Source of the DNA: a virus
Direction: 5' to 3' (one strand)
Virus genome (UHGV): UHGV-0379469
DNA: 35,405 nucleotides
Below are positions 2,197 to 34,218 of this stretch, piece after piece. A program made the position numbers and the translations under genes. A model generated the notes under the pieces. That model searched no databases, had not been told where the DNA came from, and was given only the letters and a program-made list of their open reading frames with translations. Every line of letters starts with the position of its first letter. Positions within the stretch are counted from its first letter, which is position 1.

Positions 2197-2691
2197 TCAA
2201 AACAGCCCTTTAACGGAGCTGGCCGCGCTGTTAAGGGATGATGTGACCTTATCTTTGAAGCCGGACAGCATATCACTGAACGATGAGGATTGCAGACGCT
2301 CCCGCAAATCCTCATCACAGCGTTCAAGGGTCAGTGAAAATTCTATCTTTTTCGCCTTACCGTAGCGATCAAACTCGGAACGGGTCGTATTCGTTTCAGT
2401 CAGTACATACATGCCGTAAATCTGCCCGACACCATCAATCAGAGGCCAGGGGCGTCCTGTATATGCCTGCGTGGTCAGCAACGAAAGCGACACTTCGCCA
2501 CCTGTAATTTCAGGATAAAGCACGCCGGAAAGCACGATGCGATCATCACCTGCGCCGATATACTGCCAGCTTGCTGAACGGTTAACGCGTTCATTTTTCA
2601 CATGCCGCCAGCTTTTGTTTTGCTGTAACTGCTGATGCGGCAATGTGCGCAGCTCAAAAACAAACATGCCGTAGATCATCATCATGGCCAT
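2197..2691 (-). CDS. U: tail protein U
   Basis: 164-aa ORF immediately 3' of the tape measure gene on the same strand; size and position as P2 gpU. Confidence 0.7.
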   Translation of the reverse strand: MAMMMIYGMFVFELRTLPHQQLQQNKSWRHVKNERVNRSASWQYIGAGDDRIVLSGVLYPEITGGEVSLSLLTTQAYTGRPWPLIDGVGQIYGMYVLTETNTTRSEFDRYGKAKKIEFSLTLERCDEDLRERLQSSSFSDMLSGFKDKVTSSLNSAASSVKGLF

Positions 2692-2697
2692 GACTCC

Positions 2698-5541
2698 TCA
2701 ATCTTTATCGTAAAAACTGCCACGTCCGGCACGGTCGCGTCGTTCCAATTCTGCCCTGACCATTTCACCGACCAGTTTCGCCAGTTCGCGGGGATTCTGT
2801 GTAACAACGTTATGCAGATGAACATGAATTTCACCGCCAAATCCGGAGGCAACAGGCTCCCGGTTACGGGAAGTTGCAGGAGCTGATGCCACTGGCGATC
2901 GTATGGCCTCCGCCACCGGGCGGGAGCTGGCCGCAACAACAGGGACCAGCGCCGGAGGCAGCGGAGCCGGAACCACGGGTGTGATATTAATTGCGGGGGC
3001 AGGCTTACTGACCTGCGCAATCTTCCGCTCCTGCCACTCCCCACGAACAGCAAGTGCGCGGGGCAGGTTCTTAAAGACAATATCGCCGGGGCCAATGCGT
3101 TTTTTCGTCTCATCAACCAGCTTACCTGTGTTATCAGCAATTTTGCTGAGTCTGCGTAGCGTACCGGTATTGCTGTCTGTGAGCGGTTTGTTGTCTTTGG
3201 GCTTATCACCTCCGGTACCATTGCCATTTTCCACAGGCTTCGGCGGATTGATTTTCGCCAGGTCCCCCTGAAGCAAGGCAACCTTGTCCTGAAGAATGGC
3301 CGCACGCTGTGCGTCTTCGATTTTCTTGCGCGCCCTTTCCGCTTCATCCGGAAGCACACCGAGCTTTTCAAGTATCCACGCCAGCGTATCCAGCAACATT
3401 TTTGCAGGTGTCAGAACAAGCTGTAACGCACCGCCAAGAACGTTACCGAATATCTCGCCAGCACTGGTACATTTATCCAGCGTTTCCTTGCTGGACTCCA
3501 TCGGTGACAGCAGCGATTTAAACCAGTTAAACACCTGGCTGATCCCGCTTCCGATTGCGTCAAAAACAGGACCAAACCGTTCAAAGGTTTCGCGCAACGG
3601 GGTCAGCCTTTCCATAATCCCGCTGAACACCCCGGCAAAAAATGCCCTGATGGGATCCCAGTATTTCCAGATGAGAACGGCAGCTCCGGCGAGCGCAGCC
3701 ACAATAAGACCAACCGGACTGAACAACGCCCCGATAGCGCCCCCCAGTAAAGAAACGGAACCCGTCACCATTCCCCACAGCGCAGGCAACACCCTGACGA
3801 CATTCATTGACCGGGTAAGAATGTCAAAACCAAGACGCAGGGTGGCCAGCTTCCCGTAAAGCACCCCAATAACCAGCGACAACGAGCCAATCGTTGCAGT
3901 CATTGCCAGCAACGCACCGCCTGCTATCAGCAGCTGGCGCGTCAGTACCGGATGGGCCTGCGCCAGCGCCGTCACCCTTGATACCACCCGCGTGAGCCAC
4001 TGCGTGACAGAACGCAGCGGACCGTCAATCAGATCTGCAATGCGGATGCGCAACCCTTCCCATGCACTGCCGAGTGATTTCAGATCGCCGTCAAGGTTGT
4101 TGGCCATAACCTTTGCTGTGCGTTCAGCCTCACCGCGCGCGCCTTCAAGTTCTTTTCTCAGTTTGGGTAAGGAACCGTCACCCGCTGCATCAACGAGCGC
4201 CATAAACGATGTGAAAGCCTCTTCTCCGGCAATGTCCTTAAAGAACGATACCCGGTCAACTTCCCCGTATTTGCGGGTGGCTTTATAAAGGTCGGCCAGC
4301 ACATCCTCCATCGGGCGCATTTTGCCCCCGGCATCCGAGACAGACACGCCCAGCTCTTTCAGCGCCTCTGCTGCCGCCTTTGGCGGTGATGCCAGACGAG
4401 CCAGGCTGGCACGCATTGCCGTCCCGGCATCACTTCCCCTGATACCCATATTCGCCAGCACGCCCGCCATCGCTGCGGCCTGCTCCAGCGATATTCCCAG
4501 CTTGCCCGCCACCGGACCTGCATATTTCATGGTTTCGCCCAGTGCGCGAAGGTCAGTGTTGGTACGGGTAAACGCTGCGGTGAGTGTGTCACCGACCCGA
4601 TCCATCTGGTCAGCAGAAAGGCCGAACTGCGTCAGGATATTTGAGCCAATATCTGCCGTCTCGCCGAGATCCATACCGCCAGCCGTTGCCATGCTCAGCA
4701 CGCCGGGAAGCGCAGCCTGAATGGCCTGCGGTGTGAAGCCAGCCATTGCAAGAAATGCCTGTCCACTGGCGGCATCGCCTGCGGTGAACTGCGTTTCAGA
4801 GCCAAGTTTTAACGCCTGCTCACGCAGCGCCTTAAACTGCGGGCTGTTCTGGTCGATTCGCGTCAGTGCCTGAACGCGGGACATCTCTTTGCCGAACCCG
4901 ATCGCAGGCTGCAAAAAACGCCCGGCAGCATAGCCGCCCGCCGCTGCCGCACCAATTGCCAGCGCACCACCTGTTTTCAGTTTTCCCGCTGTTTCCTGCG
5001 CGCGCGAATACCGCTCACGCGCCCGCGTTACACGCGCAAGCGCCTGCCGTTCGCGTTCAAGCTGGTTGTTGTACTGTTCGGTGCGTCTGATGGCCTGCTG
5101 GATGGTGTTATCGCTGCCTGTCAGGGAAATGCCGTGGCGTTTCAGCTCTCCGCCAAGTTCCCGCATTTTCTGAATTTCCCGTGTGCGCGATTCATTCAGG
5201 CGTTCAAGCCGGGTGCTTAACTGCTGCATCAGCTTTTGTTGTTTTTCGCTGAGCACTGTACCCGTGCGTTGTAACTGATTAAGGGCGTTAAGCTGGCGTC
5301 GTGCTTTCAATATGCCAGCATCCGCTTTACTGACAGCGTCACGGGCGCGCTCAAATGAACGCGCCTGACGCTCGAGATTTTTGATCGCCCCCTGCGTTCG
5401 CTGGATGGAGTCACCAAACTGCCCCATCAGGCGGCGGGCGTTTTCGGCAGGCCGGGTCAGCCTGTCAACGGCGCTGAAAGCGACCCGGATGTCAAGAGTC
5501 TTCATTGTCTGCATTCCCGCTGCGAAGTGCCGCCCGCTCAC
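2698..5541 (-). CDS. T: tail tape measure protein T
   Basis: 947-aa ORF, Ala/Gly-rich and coiled-coil N-terminal half with hydrophobic central segments; follows the E/E' chaperone pair; exact start uncertain (alternative Met 27-36 nt downstream). Confidence 0.85.
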   Translation of the reverse strand: MSGRHFAAGMQTMKTLDIRVAFSAVDRLTRPAENARRLMGQFGDSIQRTQGAIKNLERQARSFERARDAVSKADAGILKARRQLNALNQLQRTGTVLSEKQQKLMQQLSTRLERLNESRTREIQKMRELGGELKRHGISLTGSDNTIQQAIRRTEQYNNQLERERQALARVTRARERYSRAQETAGKLKTGGALAIGAAAAGGYAAGRFLQPAIGFGKEMSRVQALTRIDQNSPQFKALREQALKLGSETQFTAGDAASGQAFLAMAGFTPQAIQAALPGVLSMATAGGMDLGETADIGSNILTQFGLSADQMDRVGDTLTAAFTRTNTDLRALGETMKYAGPVAGKLGISLEQAAAMAGVLANMGIRGSDAGTAMRASLARLASPPKAAAEALKELGVSVSDAGGKMRPMEDVLADLYKATRKYGEVDRVSFFKDIAGEEAFTSFMALVDAAGDGSLPKLRKELEGARGEAERTAKVMANNLDGDLKSLGSAWEGLRIRIADLIDGPLRSVTQWLTRVVSRVTALAQAHPVLTRQLLIAGGALLAMTATIGSLSLVIGVLYGKLATLRLGFDILTRSMNVVRVLPALWGMVTGSVSLLGGAIGALFSPVGLIVAALAGAAVLIWKYWDPIRAFFAGVFSGIMERLTPLRETFERFGPVFDAIGSGISQVFNWFKSLLSPMESSKETLDKCTSAGEIFGNVLGGALQLVLTPAKMLLDTLAWILEKLGVLPDEAERARKKIEDAQRAAILQDKVALLQGDLAKINPPKPVENGNGTGGDKPKDNKPLTDSNTGTLRRLSKIADNTGKLVDETKKRIGPGDIVFKNLPRALAVRGEWQERKIAQVSKPAPAINITPVVPAPLPPALVPVVAASSRPVAEAIRSPVASAPATSRNREPVASGFGGEIHVHLHNVVTQNPRELAKLVGEMVRAELERRDRAGRGSFYDKD

Positions 5542-7939: not shown

Positions 7940-9049
7940 ATGACCGACACCACCATGCAATTGCTCAGTCAGGGCACAGCCCCCGTGAAAATGCCGGATT
8001 TTGATATTCTCGCGGAGGGTAAAACGCTGTCAGGCGTGGCAGAGCGCCTGATGAGCCTGTCACTGACCGACAACCGGGGATTTGAGGCGGACCAGCTCAC
8101 CATCACGCTGGATGATGCGGATGGTCAGTTGCAGCTACCGCCACGGGGCGCGCGCCTGACGGTTCTCATTGGCTGGAAAGGAGAACCGCTGACAGAAAAA
8201 GGCACTTACATTGTTGATGAAATCGCTCACGAAGGACCGCCGGACAGGCTGACTGTTTCAGCCAGAAGCGCAGATTTTCGGGATGAATTTAACGTTAAAC
8301 GTGAGGTGTCCTGGCATGATGTGACCGTTGAGCGTGTGGTATCCGCCATCGCTCATCGGTATGGTCTGAAACCGCAAATCAGCGAAATGCTGATGGATAT
8401 CGAAATCGACCACGCCGACCAGACCGAAGAAAGCGACATGTCCTTCCTTACGCGCATGGCGGAAATGCTGGGCGCAATCACCACGGTAAAAAGCGGCAAT
8501 CTGTTATTCATCATGCCAGGTGGTGGCGTGAACGCGCAGGGCCAGCCGTTGCCCTCGTTCGCCATTACACGCAGCAGCGGCGATCGCCATCAGTTCCGCA
8601 TTGCTGACCGCGAGGCGTATACGGGGGTACGCGCTTACTGGCTTGATCTTAATTACGGGAAAAAGAAAAAAGTCAGCGTGAAACGCCGCAAACCGCCAAA
8701 ACCCAAAAAGGAGAAAAGCAGCAGCCGTGAAGGTGATTATATGGAAGGCGCGGAAGGCAATGTGTTTGTGTTACGCAAGACTTATCAGAACGAGCAGGCA
8801 GCAAGACGCGCAGCGGCGGCAAAGTGGCAGCAGCTACAACGCGGAGCTGCATCATTCTCCATCACGCTGGCGCGTGGACGTGCGGAACTCTACCCCGAAA
8901 TGCATGGCACGGTGACAGGCTTCAAAAGTGACATCGACAATCAGGACTGGATTATTGCAAAAGCCGAGCACACCATTGATAACAGCGGCTTTACCACGCA
9001 GCTTGAGCTTGAAGCAAAAATCCCGGAATGGATAGCAGAAACAGAGTGA
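7940..9049 (+). CDS. D: tail protein D (late control gene D family)
   Basis: ATG at 7940 preceded by AGGGAGGGAA; protein contains ...YTGVRAYWLD..., a Lys/Arg-rich linker and ...FSITLARGR...; ORF-track start 7808 rejected (upstream 44 codons are S/P/T/R-rich and lack an RBS). Confidence 0.8.
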   Translation: MTDTTMQLLSQGTAPVKMPDFDILAEGKTLSGVAERLMSLSLTDNRGFEADQLTITLDDADGQLQLPPRGARLTVLIGWKGEPLTEKGTYIVDEIAHEGPPDRLTVSARSADFRDEFNVKREVSWHDVTVERVVSAIAHRYGLKPQISEMLMDIEIDHADQTEESDMSFLTRMAEMLGAITTVKSGNLLFIMPGGGVNAQGQPLPSFAITRSSGDRHQFRIADREAYTGVRAYWLDLNYGKKKKVSVKRRKPPKPKKEKSSSREGDYMEGAEGNVFVLRKTYQNEQAARRAAAAKWQQLQRGAASFSITLARGRAELYPEMHGTVTGFKSDIDNQDWIIAKAEHTIDNSGFTTQLELEAKIPEWIAETE

Positions 9050-12910: not shown

Positions 12911-13231
12911 TCAGCGGGATAATTTTTGGATTGTTTCGGTTGAAACACGATCTCCCTCCGAATTGCAGGAACCATCAAGAGAGAGAGCCGGAGAAATTTG
13001 CCCAACCTCCGGCATCGTTTCATCTGTTGATAACCAATAAGCATATTTCTTAAATTTAGGGTGTTTCGTAACCTTAAGTAAGGCACCCTCTGTTACTTGC
13101 TTCCCCCTCACCTCATAGTTAGTTACCGTCCCATAAGGCAGCCCAACACAATCCGCAAACTCCTGGCGGGTCATACCTTCTGCTTCACGAATCAGGCGAA
13201 ATTTTTCACCCATGCTTGACAAAGATGCCAT
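12911..13231 (-). CDS. C: immunity repressor, P2 C-type (HTH)
   Basis: HTH segment MTRQEFADCVGLPYGTVTNYE and ...QISPAL... match the P2 C layout as recalled; start taken at MASLSS (alternative in-frame starts up to 13285). Confidence 0.75.
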   Translation of the reverse strand: MASLSSMGEKFRLIREAEGMTRQEFADCVGLPYGTVTNYEVRGKQVTEGALLKVTKHPKFKKYAYWLSTDETMPEVGQISPALSLDGSCNSEGDRVSTETIQKLSR

Positions 13232-16100: not shown

Positions 16101-16396
16101 GCACCATCAACCACCAGAAGCTACGCGAACTGGCATTTGCCCTGCAACGAATGGCAACTCCTCAAAAATTACTGGCATTTCGCGCAATGCTCTCGCCGTC
16201 TGCTGTGCTGGCACTGCTGGATCAGCTGGAGCACGCCAGAACCACGGCTCCTGCCATTCGCCTGACGCTCCATCATGAAATCGCTGATTTCTGCGCAACG
16301 CTGGGGGCACCTGGCGAACCGGAAACGCCGGAAGCAATGCAGCAAGAGCTGCTGCAACGCATTGACAAGGTTTTTGATTTTTTTCTGAACCAGTAA
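16097..16396 (+). CDS. hypothetical early protein
   Basis: 99-aa ORF. Confidence 0.5.
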   Translation: MSTINHQKLRELAFALQRMATPQKLLAFRAMLSPSAVLALLDQLEHARTTAPAIRLTLHHEIADFCATLGAPGEPETPEAMQQELLQRIDKVFDFFLNQ

Positions 16397-16518
16397 GAAA
16401 CCAGAACATGCACACACAAAAAAACCGCTTGCCATGCCGCAATCGGTCAGGTTACATTTCCGTTGCACCTCATAAAACGGGTGCCGGGATTCTCAACCCG
16501 ATACAGAGCAAAGCGCAT

Positions 16519-16540
16519 AACCGCGCCAGCGGTTTTTTTG
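16519..16540 (+). terminator. intrinsic terminator-like hairpin with T7 tract
   Basis: aaCCGCgccaGCGGttttttt, about 125 nt after the preceding stop. Confidence 0.45.
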
Positions 16541-16718
16541 TGCGTACTGTATTGCCACGTCTTTTTCGCGTCAGAATTATGGCGGGGCGTACGGGGCCGA
16601 CTTCGGTCGGGCCGGATTCTTTGCTCTCCGGTGTTGAGAACCCTGTACGTCTCGCCACCCCGAGATTCTCAACTCTGGATGGTGAGCTATTTCTATCACC
16701 GAGCAAAGAGGCCACACC

Positions 16719-16949
16719 ATGGCAAACCGCAAACAACAGCGCGCATACGCTGCGCGTCGTCACATCCAGACTGAAATCAACCGTAGACTTTTCCGCGCAT
16801 CACGCGTCGCGCAAATCATGCACATCAATATGCTGCATGAGCGCAGCCACGCGCTATCGAACATCTATTCCGCCTCTGTTTTCAGCTATCTGGCGGATGA
16901 TCTGCGCGAGCTGCAACAACTCTTCCAGCAGCAAAACAAACTCCATTAA
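16719..16949 (+). CDS. hypothetical protein
   Basis: 76-aa ORF with AAGAGG RBS 8 nt upstream. Confidence 0.5.
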   Translation: MANRKQQRAYAARRHIQTEINRRLFRASRVAQIMHINMLHERSHALSNIYSASVFSYLADDLRELQQLFQQQNKLH

Positions 16950-17021
16950 TTCCTGTTCCGGGCCTTTCCTGCACCTTGCGGCGGGAGGCCTTCGCACATC
17001 TGTAGTAAAGAGAATTGCAGC

Positions 17022-17411
17022 ATGATTGACGCTCATGACTTCACAAGATGGGTGCGCACACAGGACACCCGTCTGGCTCCCGTTCTTCAGGGATTATTTG
17101 ATCTCTACATCCGTGGTCGTGACAACAGAGCACGCACCACAAAACCGGAGAATGCAGACACCCTTTATTTCACAGTAGACGACTGCTACCGCGTGGACTT
17201 CACACCACACGGGCTGGCGTTGCACTGCCTGACACCACACGGAGAATCACTGCTGGCGTATTACGACTCCCCGGCCTCCGTATTTGCGGCAATGCTGGCG
17301 CATCGCACTGCTGGCGGGTGTGCCTCGCTGAGTGAATACACCGCTGAATTTAACCGCCTTTCTGCCCTCTTCTCGCAGGAGTGGCAGCGCGTGACGGGAT
17401 ACCAGCCATGA
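17022..17411 (+). CDS. hypothetical protein preceding the replication gene
   Basis: 129-aa ORF; its stop overlaps the A start (ATGA). Confidence 0.5.
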   Translation: MIDAHDFTRWVRTQDTRLAPVLQGLFDLYIRGRDNRARTTKPENADTLYFTVDDCYRVDFTPHGLALHCLTPHGESLLAYYDSPASVFAAMLAHRTAGGCASLSEYTAEFNRLSALFSQEWQRVTGYQP

Positions 17412-20248
17412 ATGAGTTTGCATGGAGCTGGAATGAACCACGGCCAGCCATTGATCCGGCCAGATTTACGGAGCACAGGCAGGAAACTGAAACCGACCTG
17501 CAACGCGCCATCCGTTACTACCTTGAGGCAGACAAAAAGGCTCTGGAAGAACAGGAAGCGAAGGAGGAAGCCTTTTTCGCACAATCCACCGTGGGTAAAA
17601 AACTCATGGCATCCCTTGAGGAAGCCGGACAGCGTGAAAAGCTGGCACAAAGCATCATCAGCAAGCGTCAGGCAACAGAACAAGACCCGGTGGCCCGTGC
17701 TTTTGCCACACTGAAGGTGCTTCCCGTTTATCTGCGTGAACCTCTGAGCCGCCACCTCTCTTTCCTGCGCAAAAAACAGGAAGCCGATCGCCAGAAAGGC
17801 AAAAAGAGCTGGCAGGCTGAACGCTACGCGCGCGGAACCCTGCGCAAAATATTCGAACGCCTGGACCGCACCGACCACCGCTGGCTGACACCGGGTTATC
17901 GCTCCCTTGCCGGACGCGAACGCCTGGATGATTTGCTTTACCTGCCGCAGCTCAACAAGCACCAGATACAGACGCTGGCCACCATGACGGCGGCGATGTT
18001 CAGCAGCACCTTCGAAAAACTCTGCGATGGCTTTGGCGCGACCGATGGTGAGCTGACCATGGAGGTGGCACTGAAGGCGTATCAGATGCTGGCCCGCATG
18101 GCGTTACACCTGCACGCCATGCCTCCACATTATGACGCACTGACAACAGACAAAGACCGCAAGAACGAACCGGACACGGAACTGCTGCCGGGCGCAATCC
18201 TCCGCCTGACCTGTGCGGAATGGTGGAAACGCAAACTGTGGCTGTTACGTTGCGAGTGGCGGGAAGAACAACTCCGCGCCGCCTGTCTGGTTTCCAGAAA
18301 AACATCGCCCTATCTGAGCCAGGACGCGTTAAGCGAGTTTCGCGCACAGCGCGAGAAAACACGCGATTTCCTGAAAAGTTTCATGCTGGAAAACGAAGAC
18401 GGGTTCACGATTGATCTCGAGACGGTGTATTACGCGGGAGTAAGTAACCCGGTCCACCGTAAAGCAGAAATGATGGCCACCATGAAGGGGCTGGAACTTC
18501 TGGCCGAAGCCCGTGGCGACAGAGCGGTGTTTCTGACTGTCACCTGCCCGTCAAAATACCACGCCACAACAGAGAACGGTCATCCGAATCCCAAATGGAA
18601 CGGGGCCACCATGCGCGACTCCAGCGATTACCTGGTTAACACGTTTTTTGCGGCGGTCCGCAAAAAACTGAACCGCGATGGCCTGCGCTGGTATGGCATC
18701 CGCACGGTGGAGCCTCACCATGACGGCACCGTGCACTGGCATATGATGGTCTTTGCACATCCGGACGAGATTGAAACCATCGTGTCCCATGTCTGCGATA
18801 TTGCCATTCAGGAAGACCGCCACGAGCTGGGCGATGACATAACTCCGCGTTTTAAGGCTGAGTACGTAGACGGCTCAAAAGGCACGCCAACCAGCTACAT
18901 CGCCACCTACATCGGAAAGAACCTGGACAGCCGCGCCGTGGATGGCATCGACCCGAAAACGGGCAAGCCACGCGTTGACCACGAAACCGGAAAATCAATG
19001 GCAGAGAGCGTGGAACGCGCCATCGGCTGGGCGCGCCTTCACCGGGTCCGCCAGTTCCAGTTCTTTGGCATTCCCTCTCGTCAGGTATGGCGTGAACTCC
19101 GCCGCCTTGCCAGCCAGATGGCACGCAACCCGGAAGGCCCACAACGGCTGAAGGATGATGCAATGGATGCGGTACTCGCTGCCGCTGATGCCGGGTGTTT
19201 TGCCACCTACATTGAGAAACAGGGCGGCGTACTTGTTCCACGCAAAGACTACCTGATTCGCACCGCCTACGACCTCGCAGATGAGCTGAACGATTACGGC
19301 GAACAGAGCGTACAGATTTACGGGATCTGGTCACCACTCATCGGGGAGTCTTCCCGTGTGTGCACACATCCGGATAACTGGAAGCTGGTAAGACGTAAAC
19401 CGGAAGCGGAAGACAGCGCCCGCGAAAATGGTTTTGACCTTCAGGGCGGCCCTGCCGCCCCTTGGACTCGTGGCAATAACTGTCCCCGTGTACAGGAAAC
19501 AGACAACAACGGGACAGAACAGCCGGAAGAACGGCCAGCACCGTGGCCGCAGCTTCCTGACGGCGTTGACGTGAACGAATGGGTGCGCTCACTGAAACGG
19601 CACGAACGCCGGGCGCTGATGCGTTCGCTGCGTGACAAACAGGCAAAAAACAGCAGTGATGAAATGCAGAACTGGACACAGAGCCGCAAACAGCCACAGC
19701 CTTTGCCTGATAACCACGAATTACTCGCTAAAGAATGGCGGGAGTCTGCTGAATCTCTCGGCCTGCATATCGGTGAACAGCAGATGCAGCACCTGTTACG
19801 GGGCGGCAGTCTGTACGTTGACGGCAGCATCATTGCACCGCAGGGATTTGAAATTGTACGCAAACCGGATACCCGCCCGGACAGCCGAATCACGCAGCTC
19901 TGGCAACGCCTGAGCCGTAACCACGGCGTAAGCAGCACGGAGATCCGCCATAACCCAGTCGCCAGCTATCTGGAACAACTAGGGGCATCAGACCCTGAAG
20001 CCGCCGCACGCCTGGCATCCACACTTCAGCAAGACCAGAACACCATGAAAACACCCGTTACCGTACTTTCTGACATGCTGCGCGCCATCCGCGACGCAGA
20101 GCACGAACAGAGAATCAGTGAAACAACTGAACGCGCCCGCCGCAAAGCAGACCTGCTGCGGGGTGACCTGACCAGTGGAAACAAAAAACAGACAGAAACG
20201 GGATTCACAAATCCCGTAAATGAGCAAAAAACGCGCCGCGAAATATGA
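17408..20248 (+). CDS. A: replication initiation protein A (HUH rolling-circle endonuclease)
   Basis: HUH motif ...GTVHWHMMVFAH... and catalytic Tyr motif ...TSYIATYIGKN...; about 946 aa, longer than P2 gpA as I recall it (761 aa). Confidence 0.85.
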   Translation: MNEFAWSWNEPRPAIDPARFTEHRQETETDLQRAIRYYLEADKKALEEQEAKEEAFFAQSTVGKKLMASLEEAGQREKLAQSIISKRQATEQDPVARAFATLKVLPVYLREPLSRHLSFLRKKQEADRQKGKKSWQAERYARGTLRKIFERLDRTDHRWLTPGYRSLAGRERLDDLLYLPQLNKHQIQTLATMTAAMFSSTFEKLCDGFGATDGELTMEVALKAYQMLARMALHLHAMPPHYDALTTDKDRKNEPDTELLPGAILRLTCAEWWKRKLWLLRCEWREEQLRAACLVSRKTSPYLSQDALSEFRAQREKTRDFLKSFMLENEDGFTIDLETVYYAGVSNPVHRKAEMMATMKGLELLAEARGDRAVFLTVTCPSKYHATTENGHPNPKWNGATMRDSSDYLVNTFFAAVRKKLNRDGLRWYGIRTVEPHHDGTVHWHMMVFAHPDEIETIVSHVCDIAIQEDRHELGDDITPRFKAEYVDGSKGTPTSYIATYIGKNLDSRAVDGIDPKTGKPRVDHETGKSMAESVERAIGWARLHRVRQFQFFGIPSRQVWRELRRLASQMARNPEGPQRLKDDAMDAVLAAADAGCFATYIEKQGGVLVPRKDYLIRTAYDLADELNDYGEQSVQIYGIWSPLIGESSRVCTHPDNWKLVRRKPEAEDSARENGFDLQGGPAAPWTRGNNCPRVQETDNNGTEQPEERPAPWPQLPDGVDVNEWVRSLKRHERRALMRSLRDKQAKNSSDEMQNWTQSRKQPQPLPDNHELLAKEWRESAESLGLHIGEQQMQHLLRGGSLYVDGSIIAPQGFEIVRKPDTRPDSRITQLWQRLSRNHGVSSTEIRHNPVASYLEQLGASDPEAAARLASTLQQDQNTMKTPVTVLSDMLRAIRDAEHEQRISETTERARRKADLLRGDLTSGNKKQTETGFTNPVNEQKTRREI

Positions 20249-20324: not shown

Positions 20325-21284
20325 ATGAAAATTTGTATCGACGACGGCTCCACCAACATCAAGCTGGCATGGACTGAGAACGGCGAACGCCGCAACGCCA
20401 TCAGCCCGAACAGCTTCAAGTCGGAATGGTCTGCGCCGTTCGGTGGCACGCAGCCCGCGAACTACATGCTTGATAGCGTGCGCTATGGTTTTGATCCGGT
20501 CAGCGATCGCTTTGTCCAGACGACTGACACGCAATATCAGTACAGTGATGTGAATGTCATTGCCATTCATCACGCGCTGGTCAAATCAGGCATCACGCCA
20601 CAGGAGGTGGATGTGGTTGTCACCCTGCCACTGAGCGAGTATTTCGACACAAACGCACAGCCGGACATGGCCAACATCAACCGCAAAAAAGCGAACGTTA
20701 TGCGCCCGGTGGAATACCAGAACGGCGAAGCATTCACTATCCGTAATGTACGGGTTATGCCTGAATCCATTCCGGCTGGCTTTAAGGCACTGGCTGACAT
20801 GAGTCCGTTTGAATCCCTGCTGATTGTGGATTTAGGCGGAACCACGCTGGATGTGGCAAAGGTTCAGGGACAACTGGCAGGTATCAGCCAGGTGTTTTGC
20901 GATCCACACGTAGGCGTTTCCCTGATGGCCGATGCCGTACTGTCGGTGATGGCCACTAACGGTATGCGTACCAGTCACCACATCGCCAATACCATTATTG
21001 AGCACCGTCACGATGAAGCCTGGCTGCGCCAGCACATTCACAATGACGCGCATTACAACAGCCTGATGGCGGTTATTCGTGAAAAGGAGGAGACACTGAA
21101 ACAACGAGTGATCCGCGCGCTGGCGGGTTTTTCCGGTTACGGGCGGGTGATGGTTGTCGGTGGAGGGGCGGAGATTGTGGCACCCGCTATCCGCGAAGCC
21201 TGCGGAGTTAATGCGACTTTCATCGCGGACGGGGTGCCACAATTTGCTCTGGTTAATGGGCTGTACGCAATGAACAAGGAGTAA
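20325..21284 (+). CDS. parM: ParM/StbA actin-like partition ATPase
   Basis: MKICIDDGSTNIKLAW... N-terminus and ...DLGGTTLD..., ...VMVVGGGAE..., ...LVNGLYAM motifs aligning with plasmid R1 ParM as recalled. Confidence 0.8.
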   Translation: MKICIDDGSTNIKLAWTENGERRNAISPNSFKSEWSAPFGGTQPANYMLDSVRYGFDPVSDRFVQTTDTQYQYSDVNVIAIHHALVKSGITPQEVDVVVTLPLSEYFDTNAQPDMANINRKKANVMRPVEYQNGEAFTIRNVRVMPESIPAGFKALADMSPFESLLIVDLGGTTLDVAKVQGQLAGISQVFCDPHVGVSLMADAVLSVMATNGMRTSHHIANTIIEHRHDEAWLRQHIHNDAHYNSLMAVIREKEETLKQRVIRALAGFSGYGRVMVVGGGAEIVAPAIREACGVNATFIADGVPQFALVNGLYAMNKE

Positions 21285-21288
21285 ACCA

Positions 21289-21600
21289 ATGACGACACCA
21301 ACCAGAAGAATAAGTTTCTATCTGAAGCCAGCTGCCGTCAAGAACGAAGGAGAAGCATGCGCCTGGCTGGACAGCCTTACACCAGAAGCCCGCAAAAGCG
21401 GCCAACGCGTGGCTTTTCTGGCCGGGCTGGCACTTCTGAAGACGAATCCGGCAGAGGCTTACCGACTGGCCGCATGGGCTGATGATGAGATGTTACCTGT
21501 GACACAAATCAGCTCAAAAAAGTTTGAAGCACAGTCTGCACCAGTGGCTAAGATAACCAGCCAGATGGCTGGGAATATCCGGGCGTTATTTCCTGAGTAA
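21289..21600 (+). CDS. parR: ParR/StbB-like partition adaptor (DNA-binding)
   Basis: 103 aa directly after parM; RRISFYLKP...LAGLALL...RALFPE pattern resembles ParR. Confidence 0.6.
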   Translation: MTTPTRRISFYLKPAAVKNEGEACAWLDSLTPEARKSGQRVAFLAGLALLKTNPAEAYRLAAWADDEMLPVTQISSKKFEAQSAPVAKITSQMAGNIRALFPE

Positions 21601-33617: not shown

Positions 33618-34218
33618 TTCGTTGTTACCACCATCAGCCAGCAATTTCATGCGTTGTGCCGAAGCCGTCGGAACACGCATTACAGACATTCCGGTAGACC
33701 TCAACACGCTGTGGTCGCCGGACACCTGCCCGGTGCATCTGCTGCCTTATCTCGCCTGGGCGTTTTCCGTTGACCGCTGGGATCGCAACTGGCCGGAAGA
33801 GACAAAGCGACAGGTGATTCGTGATGCATGGCTGATACACCGACACAAAGGGACCATCAGCGCACTGCGAAGAGCCGTGGAGCCTCTCGGCTACCTGATT
33901 GAAGTAAAGGAGTGGTGGCAACTCAACGAGGAGCCAGGAACATTTCGCATTGTTGTCGGAGTACTTGATCAGGGCATCACCGATGAAATGTATCAGGAAC
34001 TTGAGCGCCTTATTGCGGATGCAAAACCAGTAAGTCGCCATCTGACGGGGCTGGCGATCAGCCTGAGTGTGAACGGAAAGATTTTCGTTGGTACGGGATG
34101 CTATCACGGCGATGCCCTGACGGTTTATCCCTACACCCCGGAGTCCATTATTGTCGAAGGGGATTATTTCCCTGCCCCGGCCATTCATTTAATTGATAAT
34201 CTGAGAGTAAACGCATGA
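33610..34218 (+). CDS. I: baseplate / tail protein I
   Basis: MSNSLLPPSAS...LNTLWSPDTCPVHLLPYLAWAFSVDRWD... as in P2 gpI; start overlaps J stop. Confidence 0.8.
   Translation: MSNSLLPPSASNFMRCAEAVGTRITDIPVDLNTLWSPDTCPVHLLPYLAWAFSVDRWDRNWPEETKRQVIRDAWLIHRHKGTISALRRAVEPLGYLIEVKEWWQLNEEPGTFRIVVGVLDQGITDEMYQELERLIADAKPVSRHLTGLAISLSVNGKIFVGTGCYHGDALTVYPYTPESIIVEGDYFPAPAIHLIDNLRVNA

What the first reader, a model, noticed from the sequence alone, without database searches (positions are those of the whole stretch)
16400..16700. Structured noncoding region in the early operon with long-range inverted repeats and a recurring TTCTCAAC motif
Between the 99-aa early ORF and the next gene, a segment GGGATTCTCAACCCGATACAGAGCAAAG (about 16486..16513) pairs with its imperfect reverse complement CTTTGCTCTCCGGTGTTGAGAACCC (about 16617..16642). 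These enclose a terminator-like hairpin with T7 (16519..16540) and a UUCG-tetraloop hairpin (about 16594..16613). A third direct copy GAGATTCTCAAC follows at about 16662..16673. This could be a regulated terminator/antiterminator, a small RNA, or protein-binding iterons such as an origin-like site.
Basis: seen in the sequence. Interest (0 to 1): 0.5.

Follow-up and report, generated by a model that had tools for sequence, protein, structure and literature searches.

The report
Antisense-RNA immunity module of a P2-type prophage
The "structured noncoding region" is a known kind of phage immunity switch: a small C4/CI-type antisense RNA with its two decoy/target sites, here found unannotated in a P88-like (P2-type) E. 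coli prophage, where it most likely blocks translation of a P4 epsilon-like derepression gene.

Summary
Rfam places two curated families on them above gathering score: isrK (16465-16539) and C4 antisense RNA (16575-16662). Each occurs in the isrK-like RNA (a1/b1) and again just after C4 (a2/b2). C4 carries both complements. In 86 related prophage loci the scaffold is nearly invariant. The boxes are hypervariable (6 a-types, 12 b-types, 16 combinations) and change together at all three sites, with G.U wobbles. That proves RNA-RNA pairing and points to immunity specificities. The layout and spacing match the curated P1 immI region and the P4 seqA-CI-seqC region. A conserved 205-codon frame that starts upstream of the internal promoter resembles P4 eta. 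This is a known kind (Barquist 2013 already equated IsrK/C4 with P4 seqA/CI). It is a new, unannotated member in P2-type phages. The iteron/origin reading is rejected.

The parts
16408..17025 (+). eta-like read-through ORF (205 codons). It starts 11 nt after the stop of the 99-aa ORF and upstream of the internal promoter. It crosses the isrK-like RNA, C4 and a2/b2, then the epsilon-like gene in another frame, and ends in an ATGA overlap with the start of the 129-aa ORF.
   Evidence: ORF list. The frame is open with the same start and end in 81 of 84 P88-like loci and in PhiSM. Stop counts per frame over 46 unique variants are 4 versus 68 and 137. There is a weak Pfam Phage_ASH match, and that family matches P4 eta exactly where it crosses the RNA genes.
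16412..16446 (.). Left border of the conserved module: an A7 run plus the hairpin CCGCTTGC-CATGCC-GCAATCGG. On the minus strand it reads as a hairpin followed by T7 (terminator-like). It is also the left arm of the 21-nt inverted repeat I1, whose right arm is 16525-16545. Role unexplained.
   Evidence: the repeat finder I1. Weak minus-strand Hrs13-like terminator match. Conservation begins here although the upstream genes differ. With the upstream sequence included, the MFE fold uses the I1 helix (-50.7 versus -43.9 kcal/mol with the terminator enforced).
16429..16458 (+). Predicted sigma-70 promoter of the isrK-like RNA (TTGCCA-N18-TACATT), with predicted start at about 16465. It is the positional equivalent of P4 PLE and P1 P1c4 (P51b).
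   Evidence: Promoter scan. Both hexamers are invariant in 48 variants. P4 has the same geometry, TTGCCT-N18-TATAGT. The distance from the -10 to a1 is 32 nt, as in the curated P1 annotation. No transcript data.
16465..16539 (+). isrK/seqA-type short RNA: hairpin 1 (16465-16484), hairpin 2 (16485-16500) with target box a1 (16490-16497) in its loop, single-stranded target box b1 (16505-16513), and an intrinsic terminator (16519-16534 plus U7).
   Evidence: Rfam RF01394, 62.8 bits against a gathering score of 50. Fold. Terminator scan. a1-a' and b1-b' covariation.
16575..16662 (+). C4/CI-type antisense RNA: a 17-bp closing stem (16580-16596 with 16641-16657), UUCG hairpin 1 (16597-16610), hairpin 2 (16611-16632) with b' (16617-16627) in its 12-nt loop, and a' (16633-16640) single-stranded.
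   Evidence: Rfam RF01695, 78.5 bits against a gathering score of 45. MFE -47.6 kcal/mol with the same fold. Compensatory changes in the long stem (3 pairs) and in hairpin 1 (2 pairs).
16666..16673 (+). Downstream target box a2 (UUCUCAAC), complementary to a'.
   Evidence: 4 of 8 pairs show changes on both sides.
16701..16711 (+). Downstream target box b2 (GAGCAAAGAG), overlapping the Shine-Dalgarno AAGAGG (16706-16711) of the epsilon-like gene.
   Evidence: 5 of 11 pairs show changes on both sides. The b'-b2 duplex is -14.3 kcal/mol.
16719..16949 (+). Regulated gene: a 76-aa homolog of the P4 epsilon helper-derepression protein.
   Evidence: Pfam PF25738, 31.5 bits against a cut-off of 27. 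33% identity over 51 aa to P4 epsilon, E = 4e-9. RefSeq names it 'derepression protein'.
17022..20248 (+). Downstream genes of the same transcription unit: a 129-aa ORF (17022-17411) and the gpA replication endonuclease (17381-20248). They may be subject to polarity from the switch.
   Evidence: Phage_GPA, 432 bits.

Best explanation
The region is the RNA immunity (immI-type) module of a P88-like, P2-type prophage of E. coli. It is homologous to P1 c4-icd-ant, to P4 seqA-CI-seqC and to Gifsy-1 isrK-'orf45'-anrP.

Proposed mechanism:
1. An internal promoter (about 16429-16458) starts transcription near 16465.
2. Most transcripts stop at the intrinsic terminator. This gives an isrK-like RNA of about 75 nt that displays boxes a1 and b1.
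3. Read-through transcripts contain the C4-type RNA (about 16580-16660), a stable tRNA-like fold that displays the complementary boxes b' (in a loop) and a' (single-stranded).
4. C4 pairs with a2 and b2 in the leader of the next gene, either in cis in the unprocessed transcript or in trans after excision. Because b2 covers the Shine-Dalgarno, the epsilon-like derepression protein is not translated. By polarity, the 129-aa ORF and replication gene A are probably also kept low.
5. The a1/b1 copy in the isrK-like RNA is a second binding site that competes for or cooperates with C4.
6. The a and b boxes are the specificity determinants. They are hypervariable and assort independently, which defines heteroimmune groups.
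7. Transcripts that come from the upstream early promoter carry the start codon of a 205-codon eta-like frame. Translation of that frame across the module probably makes those transcripts insensitive to the RNA, as described for P4 eta.

Shown here: the two RNA families, their folds, the three-way co-varying pairings, the overlap of b2 with the ribosome-binding site, the homology of the regulated gene to epsilon, and the conservation of the promoter hexamers and of the long frame.

Inferred: promoter activity, termination, processing, translational repression, polarity, and the antirepressor role of the epsilon-like protein.
For: RNA families. Rfam gives C4 at 78.5 bits and isrK at 62.8 bits, both above gathering score. 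The same two families, in the same order, precede epsilon in P4 and the antirepressor gene anrP in Gifsy-1.

Layout. The curated P1 annotation has promoter, a1, b1, C4, a2, b2, then icd/ant. Its spacings from the -10 to a1 (32 nt) and from b1 to C4 (67 nt) are identical to the window's, and it labels a2/b2 as sites for 'repression of icd ant translation'.

Covariation. There are 48 unique variants from 86 loci. Sequence entropy is confined to the boxes. Pairs with changes on both sides: a1-a' 4 of 8, b1-b' 6 of 9 (100% paired), a'-a2 4 of 8, b'-b2 5 of 11. Compensatory pairs also occur in the C4 stems. Overall 97% of cells pair against about 41% when the partners are slid, and 0 of 500 shuffles reach the observed score.

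Specificity. Cognate duplexes average -22.9 kcal/mol and non-cognate ones -11.5.

SD occlusion. b2 overlaps AAGAGG, 7 nt before the ATG. The MFE fold of the read-through transcript pairs b'/a' with b2/a2 in cis.

Regulated gene. It belongs to the epsilon family.

eta-like frame.. The P4 logic is summarised in PMC10111431.

Literature. Barquist 2013 (PMC3632133) equates IsrK/C4 with P4 seqA/CI. In Gifsy-1 the long transcript is transcribed but not translated, and IsrK supplied in trans relieves this (PMC4825925). Sakai Sp13, a P2-like prophage with an epsilon-like gene, is mitomycin-inducible although its repressor lacks a peptidase motif (PMC2669165). EDL933 carries this module at 96% identity.
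Against: No transcript, processing or reporter data exist for this locus or for any P88-like phage.

The promoter match is only 9 of 12, and such matches are no more frequent here than in shuffled sequence.

The antirepressor role is uncertain. Epsilon-like proteins are about 91% identical in phages whose C repressors are only 29-48% identical to this one. That does not fit a tightly co-evolved antirepressor-repressor pair.

Rfam's c4-a1b1 model did not reach E <= 1 here.

The eta-like frame is supported only by its openness. In the window's own sequence the overlapping frame would stay open by chance 23% of the time.

Whether the output is translational block (as in P1), Rho-dependent termination (as in P4) or both cannot be decided from sequence.
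Confidence: 0.85

Rival explanations
1. Same module, but the main output is P4-style premature transcription termination. In this reading C4 pairing with a1/b1 and a2/b2 causes Rho-dependent termination ahead of the epsilon-like gene and gene A, and blocking the ribosome-binding site is only the trigger. The RNA would then be primarily a replication-immunity factor, as CI is for the P4 alpha operon.
For: The gene order RNA module, epsilon, ORF, replication gene is the same as in P4. An eta-like frame is conserved, and in P4 that frame exists to bypass termination. In P1 too, the translational block leads to loss of downstream ant expression; that is established knowledge and appears in the annotation note ('apparently required for expression of ant').
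Against: No Kil homolog is present. The 129-aa ORF is unrelated to P4 orf151. No terminator was detected downstream of b2. Rho sites cannot be predicted with these tools. This reading is not exclusive of the best explanation.
Confidence: 0.4
2. The short isrK-like RNA is the active trans-regulator, working as an activator as reported for Gifsy-1 IsrK. It binds the C4 segment of the long transcript, or free C4, and so frees the ribosome-binding site. The level of the short RNA would then decide induction.
For: In Gifsy-1, IsrK supplied in trans raises anrP translation about 140-fold by pairing with 'orf45' (PMC4825925). That 'orf45' interval is a C4-family hit. a1/b1 are as complementary to C4 as a2/b2 are, at -23.1 versus -22.9 kcal/mol.
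Against: In P4 the homologous seqA site is required for immunity rather than against it (PMC3632133; PMC10111431). The stoichiometry and timing of the two RNAs are unknown here.
Confidence: 0.35
3. A purely cis-acting terminator/antiterminator. The long-range pairing, or the I1 helix (16412-16432 with 16525-16545), would decide whether the T7 terminator forms, with no trans-acting RNA.
For: With the upstream sequence included, the MFE fold uses the I1 helix, which consumes the 3' arm of the terminator (-50.7 versus -43.9 kcal/mol).
Against: Both I1 arms are invariant, so no covariation supports the helix. The upstream arm duplicates the 5' arm of the terminator rather than sequestering it, which is kinetically unfavourable for antitermination. 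P4 lacks an equivalent. The co-varying pairings involve the C4 fold, not the terminator.
Confidence: 0.07
4. The repeated boxes are DNA sites (iterons or operators) for a protein, for example at a replication origin next to gene A.
For: There are two direct copies and one inverted copy of each box close to the replication gene.
Against: - Complementarity is kept through G.U/U.G states, which are mismatches at the DNA level.
- The boxes sit in the loops and single strands of a conserved, covariation-supported RNA fold that matches curated RNA families.
- The two boxes assort independently in 16 combinations while the neighbouring proteins stay about 91% identical.
Confidence: 0.02

Closest known systems
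P1/P7 immI region (c4 antisense RNA, a1/b1 and a2/b2 sites, icd-ant)
   Same: The order and spacing match: promoter, a1, b1, C4, a2, b2, first ORF. The distance from the -10 to a1 is 32 nt and from b1 to C4 is 67 nt in both. a2 lies a few nt after C4, and b2 lies about 10 nt before the start codon (one search compared). C4 belongs to the same Rfam family. The a-box polarity is the same, with the target beginning AUU.
   Different: The regulated gene is an epsilon-family protein of 76 aa, not icd-ant. There is an intrinsic terminator between b1 and C4, giving an isrK-type short RNA. The host phage is P2-type, with a C/Cox switch, and is not a P1-type plasmid prophage. Whether the prophage repressor has an operator at this promoter (as P1 C1 does at Oc4) was not examined.
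Satellite P4 immunity region (PLE, seqA, CI RNA, seqC, eta/kil, then epsilon)
   Same: Both Rfam families occur in the same order. The promoter geometry is the same. There is a terminator after b1. b2 lies on a Shine-Dalgarno. A long frame starts upstream of the promoter and crosses the RNA genes. An epsilon homolog lies downstream, followed by the replication gene.
   Different: In P4, b2 controls kil (65 aa) and epsilon follows by translational coupling. Here the epsilon-like gene sits directly at b2 and there is no Kil. The eta-like frame is out of frame with the regulated gene. The a-box duplex is strand-swapped relative to P4. The replication gene is P2-type gpA, not the alpha primase. 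The element is a complete helper-type phage, not a satellite.
Gifsy-1 isrK-orf45(STnc1160)-anrP-isrJ locus of Salmonella
   Same: An isrK hit is followed by a C4 hit and then an antirepressor-type gene. The long transcript is translationally silent.
   Different: The host phage is lambdoid. The regulated gene is a Rha/Bro-type antirepressor. The published model treats the C4 interval as a small ORF and IsrK as an activator.
N15 anti-immunity locus (CA RNA and antA/B/C)
   Same: It is cited as a structurally similar processed-RNA control of an antirepressor (PMC3632133).
   Different: It was not examined here.

Membership tests
Rfam RF01695 C4 antisense RNA (clan CL00128) | Covariance-model score at or above the family gathering score, over the full model | tested here: met
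   78.5 bits against 45, model positions 1-87 of 87, E = 6e-14 in the whole window.
Rfam RF01695 C4 antisense RNA (clan CL00128) | Long closing stem enclosing two hairpins, supported by compensatory changes | tested here: met
   Three compensatory pairs in the 17-bp stem and two in hairpin 1; 99.8-100% of cells paired. The MFE fold is the same.
Rfam RF01695 C4 antisense RNA (clan CL00128) | Two exposed boxes (a', b') complementary to sites both upstream and downstream in the same transcript | tested here: met
   covariation.
Rfam RF01695 C4 antisense RNA (clan CL00128) | Excised from a longer transcript (RNase P 5' processing) to give a stable RNA of about 77 nt | not testable with these tools
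   The only indication is a tRNA-like stem followed by ACCC. No RNA data are available.
Rfam RF01394 isrK / P4 seqA element | Covariance-model score at or above the gathering score; two hairpins plus an intrinsic terminator | tested here: met
   62.8 bits against 50, model positions 1-77 of 77. Terminator confirmed by the scan and by folding.
Rfam RF01394 isrK / P4 seqA element | Own promoter directly upstream, so that the RNA starts at model position 1 | tested here: inconclusive
   TTGCCA-N18-TACATT ends 7 nt before model position 1. It is invariant in 48 variants and has the same geometry as P4 PLE. It is only a consensus match; no start-site data exist.
Rfam RF03163 c4-a1b1 (a1, b1 targets of C4) | Covariance-model match | tested here: not met
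   No hit at E <= 1 in 16300-16800, although P4 (44.1 bits) and Gifsy-1 (48.1 bits) do match. The a1/b1 function is supported here by covariation instead.
P1 immI-type switch (antisense control of an antirepressor operon) | b2 overlaps the ribosome-binding site of the first regulated ORF | tested here: met
   b2 is 16701-16710, the SD AAGAGG is 16706-16711 and the ATG is at 16719. This holds in all variants.
P1 immI-type switch (antisense control of an antirepressor operon) | The regulated product inactivates the prophage repressor | not testable with these tools
   The product belongs to the epsilon family, and the prophage repressor belongs to the P2 C family at 37-42% identity. However, the epsilon-like protein is conserved across very different C proteins.
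P4-type immunity with eta bypass | A long ORF that starts upstream of the internal promoter and is translated across the RNA genes | tested here: inconclusive
   The frame is open in 81 of 84 loci and in PhiSM, with a conserved ATG and ATGA end. Stops avoid this frame. Translation itself was not shown.
P4-type immunity with eta bypass | kil as the first translated gene after seqC | tested here: not met
   The gene at b2 is the epsilon-like gene. There is no in-frame kil-like end and no similarity.
Pfam PF25738 Derepression (P4 epsilon) family | HMM score at or above the gathering score | tested here: met
   31.5 bits against 27. BLASTP to P4 epsilon gives E = 4e-9.

The most novel reading that the evidence does not exclude
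RNA-level cross-talk between satellites and helper-type phages. In P4-like satellites the a-box duplex is strand-swapped. The satellite CI RNA carries AUUCUCA or AUUUCCAC, which are the same sequences that P88-like phages use as a-box targets for their own C4 RNA. A satellite CI RNA could therefore mimic the target and bind the a' box of a resident P88-like C4 RNA, or the reverse. This would titrate the immunity RNA and trigger expression of the epsilon-like gene and gene A, or of the satellite alpha operon. The hypervariable boxes would then record an arms race between helpers and satellites, rather than only heteroimmunity among phages.
Probability: 0.1. Interest if true: 0.75.

Novelty: new member of a known kind. 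Interest (0 to 1): 0.4.

Why it matters
P88-like prophages carrying this module are found in roughly a fifth of complete E. coli genomes (1180 of 5426), including O157:H7 EDL933. Yet RefSeq annotates no RNA gene here, and some records draw spurious proteins ("ash family", or a minus-strand hypothetical) over it.

Recognising the module has four consequences:
1. It gives these P2-type phages a second, RNA-based immunity layer on top of C/Cox.
2. It offers a concrete candidate mechanism for the unexplained mitomycin C inducibility of Sakai Sp13.
3. It shows that a helper-type phage and its satellite P4 share a homologous immunity-plus-epsilon cassette.
4. It provides a natural set of 16 or more orthogonal antisense/target pairs on one scaffold, which would be useful as a model of how specificity evolves.

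Tried and rejected
- Genome-contig scan for the epsilon-like gene: only 3 loci, because the collection holds one genome per species. I used IMG/VR instead.
- Literature search for a description of the RNA module in P88 or PhiSM: none found.
- Search for transcript evidence in EHEC studies: nothing on Sp13.
- Primary P4 papers (PMC94026, PMC176756): not held. I relied on the summary in PMC10111431.
- Second promoter-like site TTGCCA-N17-AATTAT (16552-16580): rejected. Its -35 is not conserved (T/C at 16553) and its predicted start would fall inside the C4 stem.
- LexA box upstream of the module: none seen by eye in 16540-16560; not searched systematically.
- I1 helix as an antiterminator: not supported, since both arms are invariant, the kinetics are unfavourable and P4 has no equivalent.
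- 129-aa ORF compared with P4 orf151: no similarity.
- CRISPR-DR33 and Hrs13 sub-threshold Rfam hits: these are simply the two terminator-like hairpins.
- Co-occurrence test for matched box types between satellite and prophage: only two genomes carried both, one matched and one not.

Full report
WHAT THE WINDOW IS

The window is a P88-like (genus Xuanwuvirus, Peduoviridae, P2-type) prophage of E. coli. The 6.3 kb around the finding is 100% identical to prophages inserted next to pdxB in two complete genomes. Of 5426 complete genomes, 1474 hold a match to at least part of that stretch. The core 541 bases (16410-16950) are present in 1180 of them, including O157:H7 EDL933 at 96% identity.

The RefSeq gene order is: integrase, C repressor, Cox, several small early ORFs, a MarR-type wHTH protein, a 99-aa ORF, a 322-nt unannotated gap, "derepression protein" (76 aa), a 129-aa ORF, replication endonuclease gpA, then ParM. 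The finding lies in that gap.

CHECK OF THE OBSERVATION

The second half of the long repeat, GAGCAAAG, has its own second direct copy at 16701-16708. That copy is complementary to the same C4 segment and overlaps the Shine-Dalgarno (AAGAGG, 16706-16711) of the ORF that starts at 16719.

So there are two boxes. Box a (UUCUCAAC) and box b (GAGCAAAG) each occur twice in the sense orientation:
- a1 at 16490-16497 and b1 at 16505-16513
- a2 at 16666-16673 and b2 at 16701-16710

Each occurs once as the complement:
- b' at 16617-16627
- a' at 16633-16640

WHAT IT IS

An Rfam scan of the whole window gives exactly two hits above gathering score:
- isrK (RF01394) at 16465-16539, 62.8 bits
- C4 antisense RNA (RF01695) at 16575-16662, 78.5 bits

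The "UUCG hairpin" is hairpin 1 of C4. In the C4 fold, b' lies in the 12-nt loop of hairpin 2, and a' lies in the single strand between hairpin 2 and the 17-bp closing stem. a1 lies in the loop of isrK hairpin 2.

The same two families occur in the same order elsewhere:
- In satellite phage P4, at the known seqA and CI positions, directly upstream of epsilon.
- In Gifsy-1, between antQ and the antirepressor gene anrP. There the C4 hit coincides with the interval published as "orf45"/STnc1160.

The curated P1 record annotates promoter P1c4, a1, b1, C4 RNA, a2, b2 ("repression of icd ant translation"), icd and ant. The window has the same distances as P1 from the -10 to a1 (32 nt) and from b1 to the start of C4 (67 nt).

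Barquist et al. 2013 already wrote that IsrK and C4 are structural homologs of P4 seqA and CI RNA, and that P1, P7 and N15 use similar systems (PMC3632133). Mageeney et al. 2023 note that the Rfam C4 and isrK models detect CI and seqA relatives (PMC10111431). The kind is therefore known.

COMPARATIVE EVIDENCE

I collected 80 IMG/VR loci, 3 genome loci and several phage records that encode the epsilon-like gene. The 350 nt upstream of that gene fall into 48 unique variants. The scaffold is almost invariant, including both promoter hexamers, the terminator and the C4 stems. Sequence entropy is concentrated in the boxes.

The boxes change together at all three sites. There are six a-types and twelve b-types in 16 combinations, so a and b assort independently.

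On 24 representative sequences, the pairs with changes on both sides are:
- a1-a': 4 of 8
- b1-b': 6 of 9 (100% of cells paired)
- a'-a2: 4 of 8
- b'-b2: 5 of 11

Several G.U states occur in these pairs. Overall 96-97% of cells pair, against about 41% when the partners are slid by 1-3 columns, and no shuffle out of 500 reaches the observed covariation score. The C4 closing stem and hairpin 1 also show compensatory pairs.

Predicted duplex energies for C4 with the a2 and b2 targets average -22.9 kcal/mol for cognate pairs and -11.5 for non-cognate pairs. Types that share one box give intermediate values.

This is the signature of RNA-RNA recognition under diversifying selection, that is, of immunity specificities. 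It excludes a protein-binding iteron explanation.

THE REGULATED GENE

The 76-aa product matches Pfam Derepression (PF25738, 31.5 bits against a cut-off of 27). It aligns with P4 epsilon at 33% identity over 51 residues (E = 4e-9).

Among deposited phages the gene occurs only in the nine P88-group records. The prophage's own repressor is a P2 C-family protein, 37-42% identical to P2 C.

Asadulghani et al. 2009 noticed an epsilon-like gene in the P2-like prophage Sp13 of O157 Sakai. They pointed out that Sp13 is mitomycin C-inducible although its repressor has no peptidase motif (PMC2669165).

One caution applies. Epsilon-like proteins are about 91% identical in phages whose C proteins are only 29-48% identical to this one. 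A strictly cognate antirepressor-repressor pair is therefore unlikely.

HOW IT MOST LIKELY WORKS

A promoter-like site, TTGCCA-N18-TACATT (16429-16458), ends 7 nt before position 1 of the isrK model. It is invariant in all variants and has the same geometry as P4 PLE, TTGCCT-N18-TATAGT.

Transcripts from this promoter would mostly end at the terminator and give the short a1/b1 RNA. Read-through transcripts carry C4 and the a2/b2 leader. In the MFE fold of the read-through transcript, b'/a' pair with b2/a2 in cis. After excision C4 can do the same in trans. Either way the Shine-Dalgarno of the epsilon-like gene is occluded.

This matches two precedents: the curated P1 mechanism, and the Gifsy-1 observation that the long transcript is made but not translated. 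Whether Rho-dependent polarity then silences the 129-aa ORF and gene A, as in P4, cannot be decided here.

The role of the short RNA is open. In P4, seqA is needed for immunity. In Gifsy-1, IsrK supplied in trans relieves repression.

AN eta-LIKE FRAME

A 205-codon frame (16408-17025) starts 11 nt after the stop of the 99-aa ORF and upstream of the internal promoter. It runs through both RNA genes and through the epsilon-like gene in another frame. It ends in an ATGA overlap with the 129-aa ORF.

The evidence that this frame is maintained:
- It is open, with the same start and the same end, in 81 of 84 P88-like loci. Five different upstream contexts each supply an in-frame ATG.
- It is also open in PhiSM, whose epsilon-like protein is only 64.5% identical.
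- Over 46 unique variants, this frame has 4 stops, all in three indel or duplication variants. The other two frames have 68 and 137.
- Synonymous randomisation of the epsilon-like gene leaves the overlapping frame open in 0.8% of trials for PhiSM, but in 23% for the window.

Pfam Phage_ASH matches P4's long eta frame exactly where it crosses seqA, CI and seqC, and it does not match epsilon. It weakly matches the window's frame too.

In P4, eta is translated only from the upstream late promoter, and its translation prevents termination (summary in PMC10111431). By analogy, transcripts from the early promoter would be insensitive to the RNA, while transcripts from the internal promoter would be sensitive. 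This step is inference from conservation only.

COMPARISON WITH THE KNOWN SYSTEMS, AND NOVELTY

The module passes the tests for membership of the C4 and isrK families and has the P1 immI layout. It shares the terminator, the downstream epsilon gene and the eta-like frame with P4. It lacks kil, and it has the opposite strand polarity of the a duplex.

It is a new, unannotated member of a known kind, in a phage group (P2-type) where I found no description of it. Interest is moderate.

The most novel reading still open is RNA cross-talk with satellites. Two of the three a' types in 80 P4-like satellites (AUUCUCA and AUUUCCA) equal the target a-types of P88-like phages. Satellite CI and helper-type C4 could therefore pair through their a' boxes. 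The b boxes show no such match, and only two genomes with both elements were available, one matched and one not.

Noticed in passing
window 16408-17025 (+): A 205-codon frame crosses both RNA genes and the whole epsilon-like gene (in another frame) and ends in an ATGA overlap with the next gene. It is open in 81 of 84 related loci and in the divergent PhiSM, and it resembles P4 eta.
   Followed up: yes
window 16412-16432 and 16525-16545: A 21-nt inverted repeat (90% complementary) flanks the internal promoter and the isrK-like RNA. The left arm plus 16425-16446 reads as a terminator on the minus strand. In transcripts from upstream it could pair with the 3' half of the isrK terminator. Both arms are invariant and P4 has no equivalent. 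Function unexplained.
   Followed up: partly
P4 (L003) 8330-8704, minus strand; window 16453-16740: Pfam PF10554 'Phage_ASH' models the translation of the seqA/CI/seqC RNA region (the eta frame), not epsilon, which is PF25738. A published satellite survey (PMC8628076) used PF10554 as its 'epsilon' marker. RefSeq 'ash family protein' calls lie over this RNA module.
   Followed up: yes
L087 (Gifsy-1) 34131-34214, minus strand: The interval published as 'orf45'/STnc1160 in the Gifsy-1 isrK locus is a C4-family RNA hit (69 bits). IsrK's reported target is therefore a C4-type antisense RNA.
   Followed up: yes
L088-L167 (P4-like satellites) compared with L004-L086 (P88-like phages): Satellites show the same mosaic of hypervariable boxes, but the a duplex is strand-swapped. 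Two of the three satellite CI a' types equal the target a-types of P88-like phages, which allows possible CI-C4 pairing.
   Followed up: partly
L020, about 17 nt inserted in C4 hairpin 2 (aligned to window ~16616): One P88-like variant has a duplicated C4 hairpin 2 carrying two different b' loops (CTTTGCTCT and CTTGTGTAG). It may be a recombination intermediate or an RNA with dual specificity.
   Followed up: no
L002 (phage P88) 4056-4244, minus strand; window 16470-16763, minus strand: GenBank P88 annotates a minus-strand hypothetical protein over the C4 RNA. It has no Pfam match and is probably spurious. RefSeq E. coli records annotate no RNA gene in the gap.
   Followed up: partly
window ~20325-21600 (+): Directly after gpA the prophage encodes a ParM-type segregation ATPase and a 'plasmid partitioning/stability' protein. 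These are unusual for an integrated P2-type phage and are reminiscent of plasmid-prophage lifestyles such as P1, N15 and the P4 plasmid state.
   Followed up: no
L170 (Rac-type prophage) 2451-3299: The same isrK-C4 module (about 76% identical) lies inside the 5' part of an annotated Rha-family regulatory protein CDS. The cassette therefore recurs in front of, or fused to, different antirepressor-type genes.
   Followed up: partly
window 12911-13231 (-) compared with 16719-16949 (+): The epsilon-like protein is about 91% identical between phages whose C repressors are only 29-48% identical (P88, PhiSM). Its target may therefore not be the cognate C repressor alone.
   Followed up: partly
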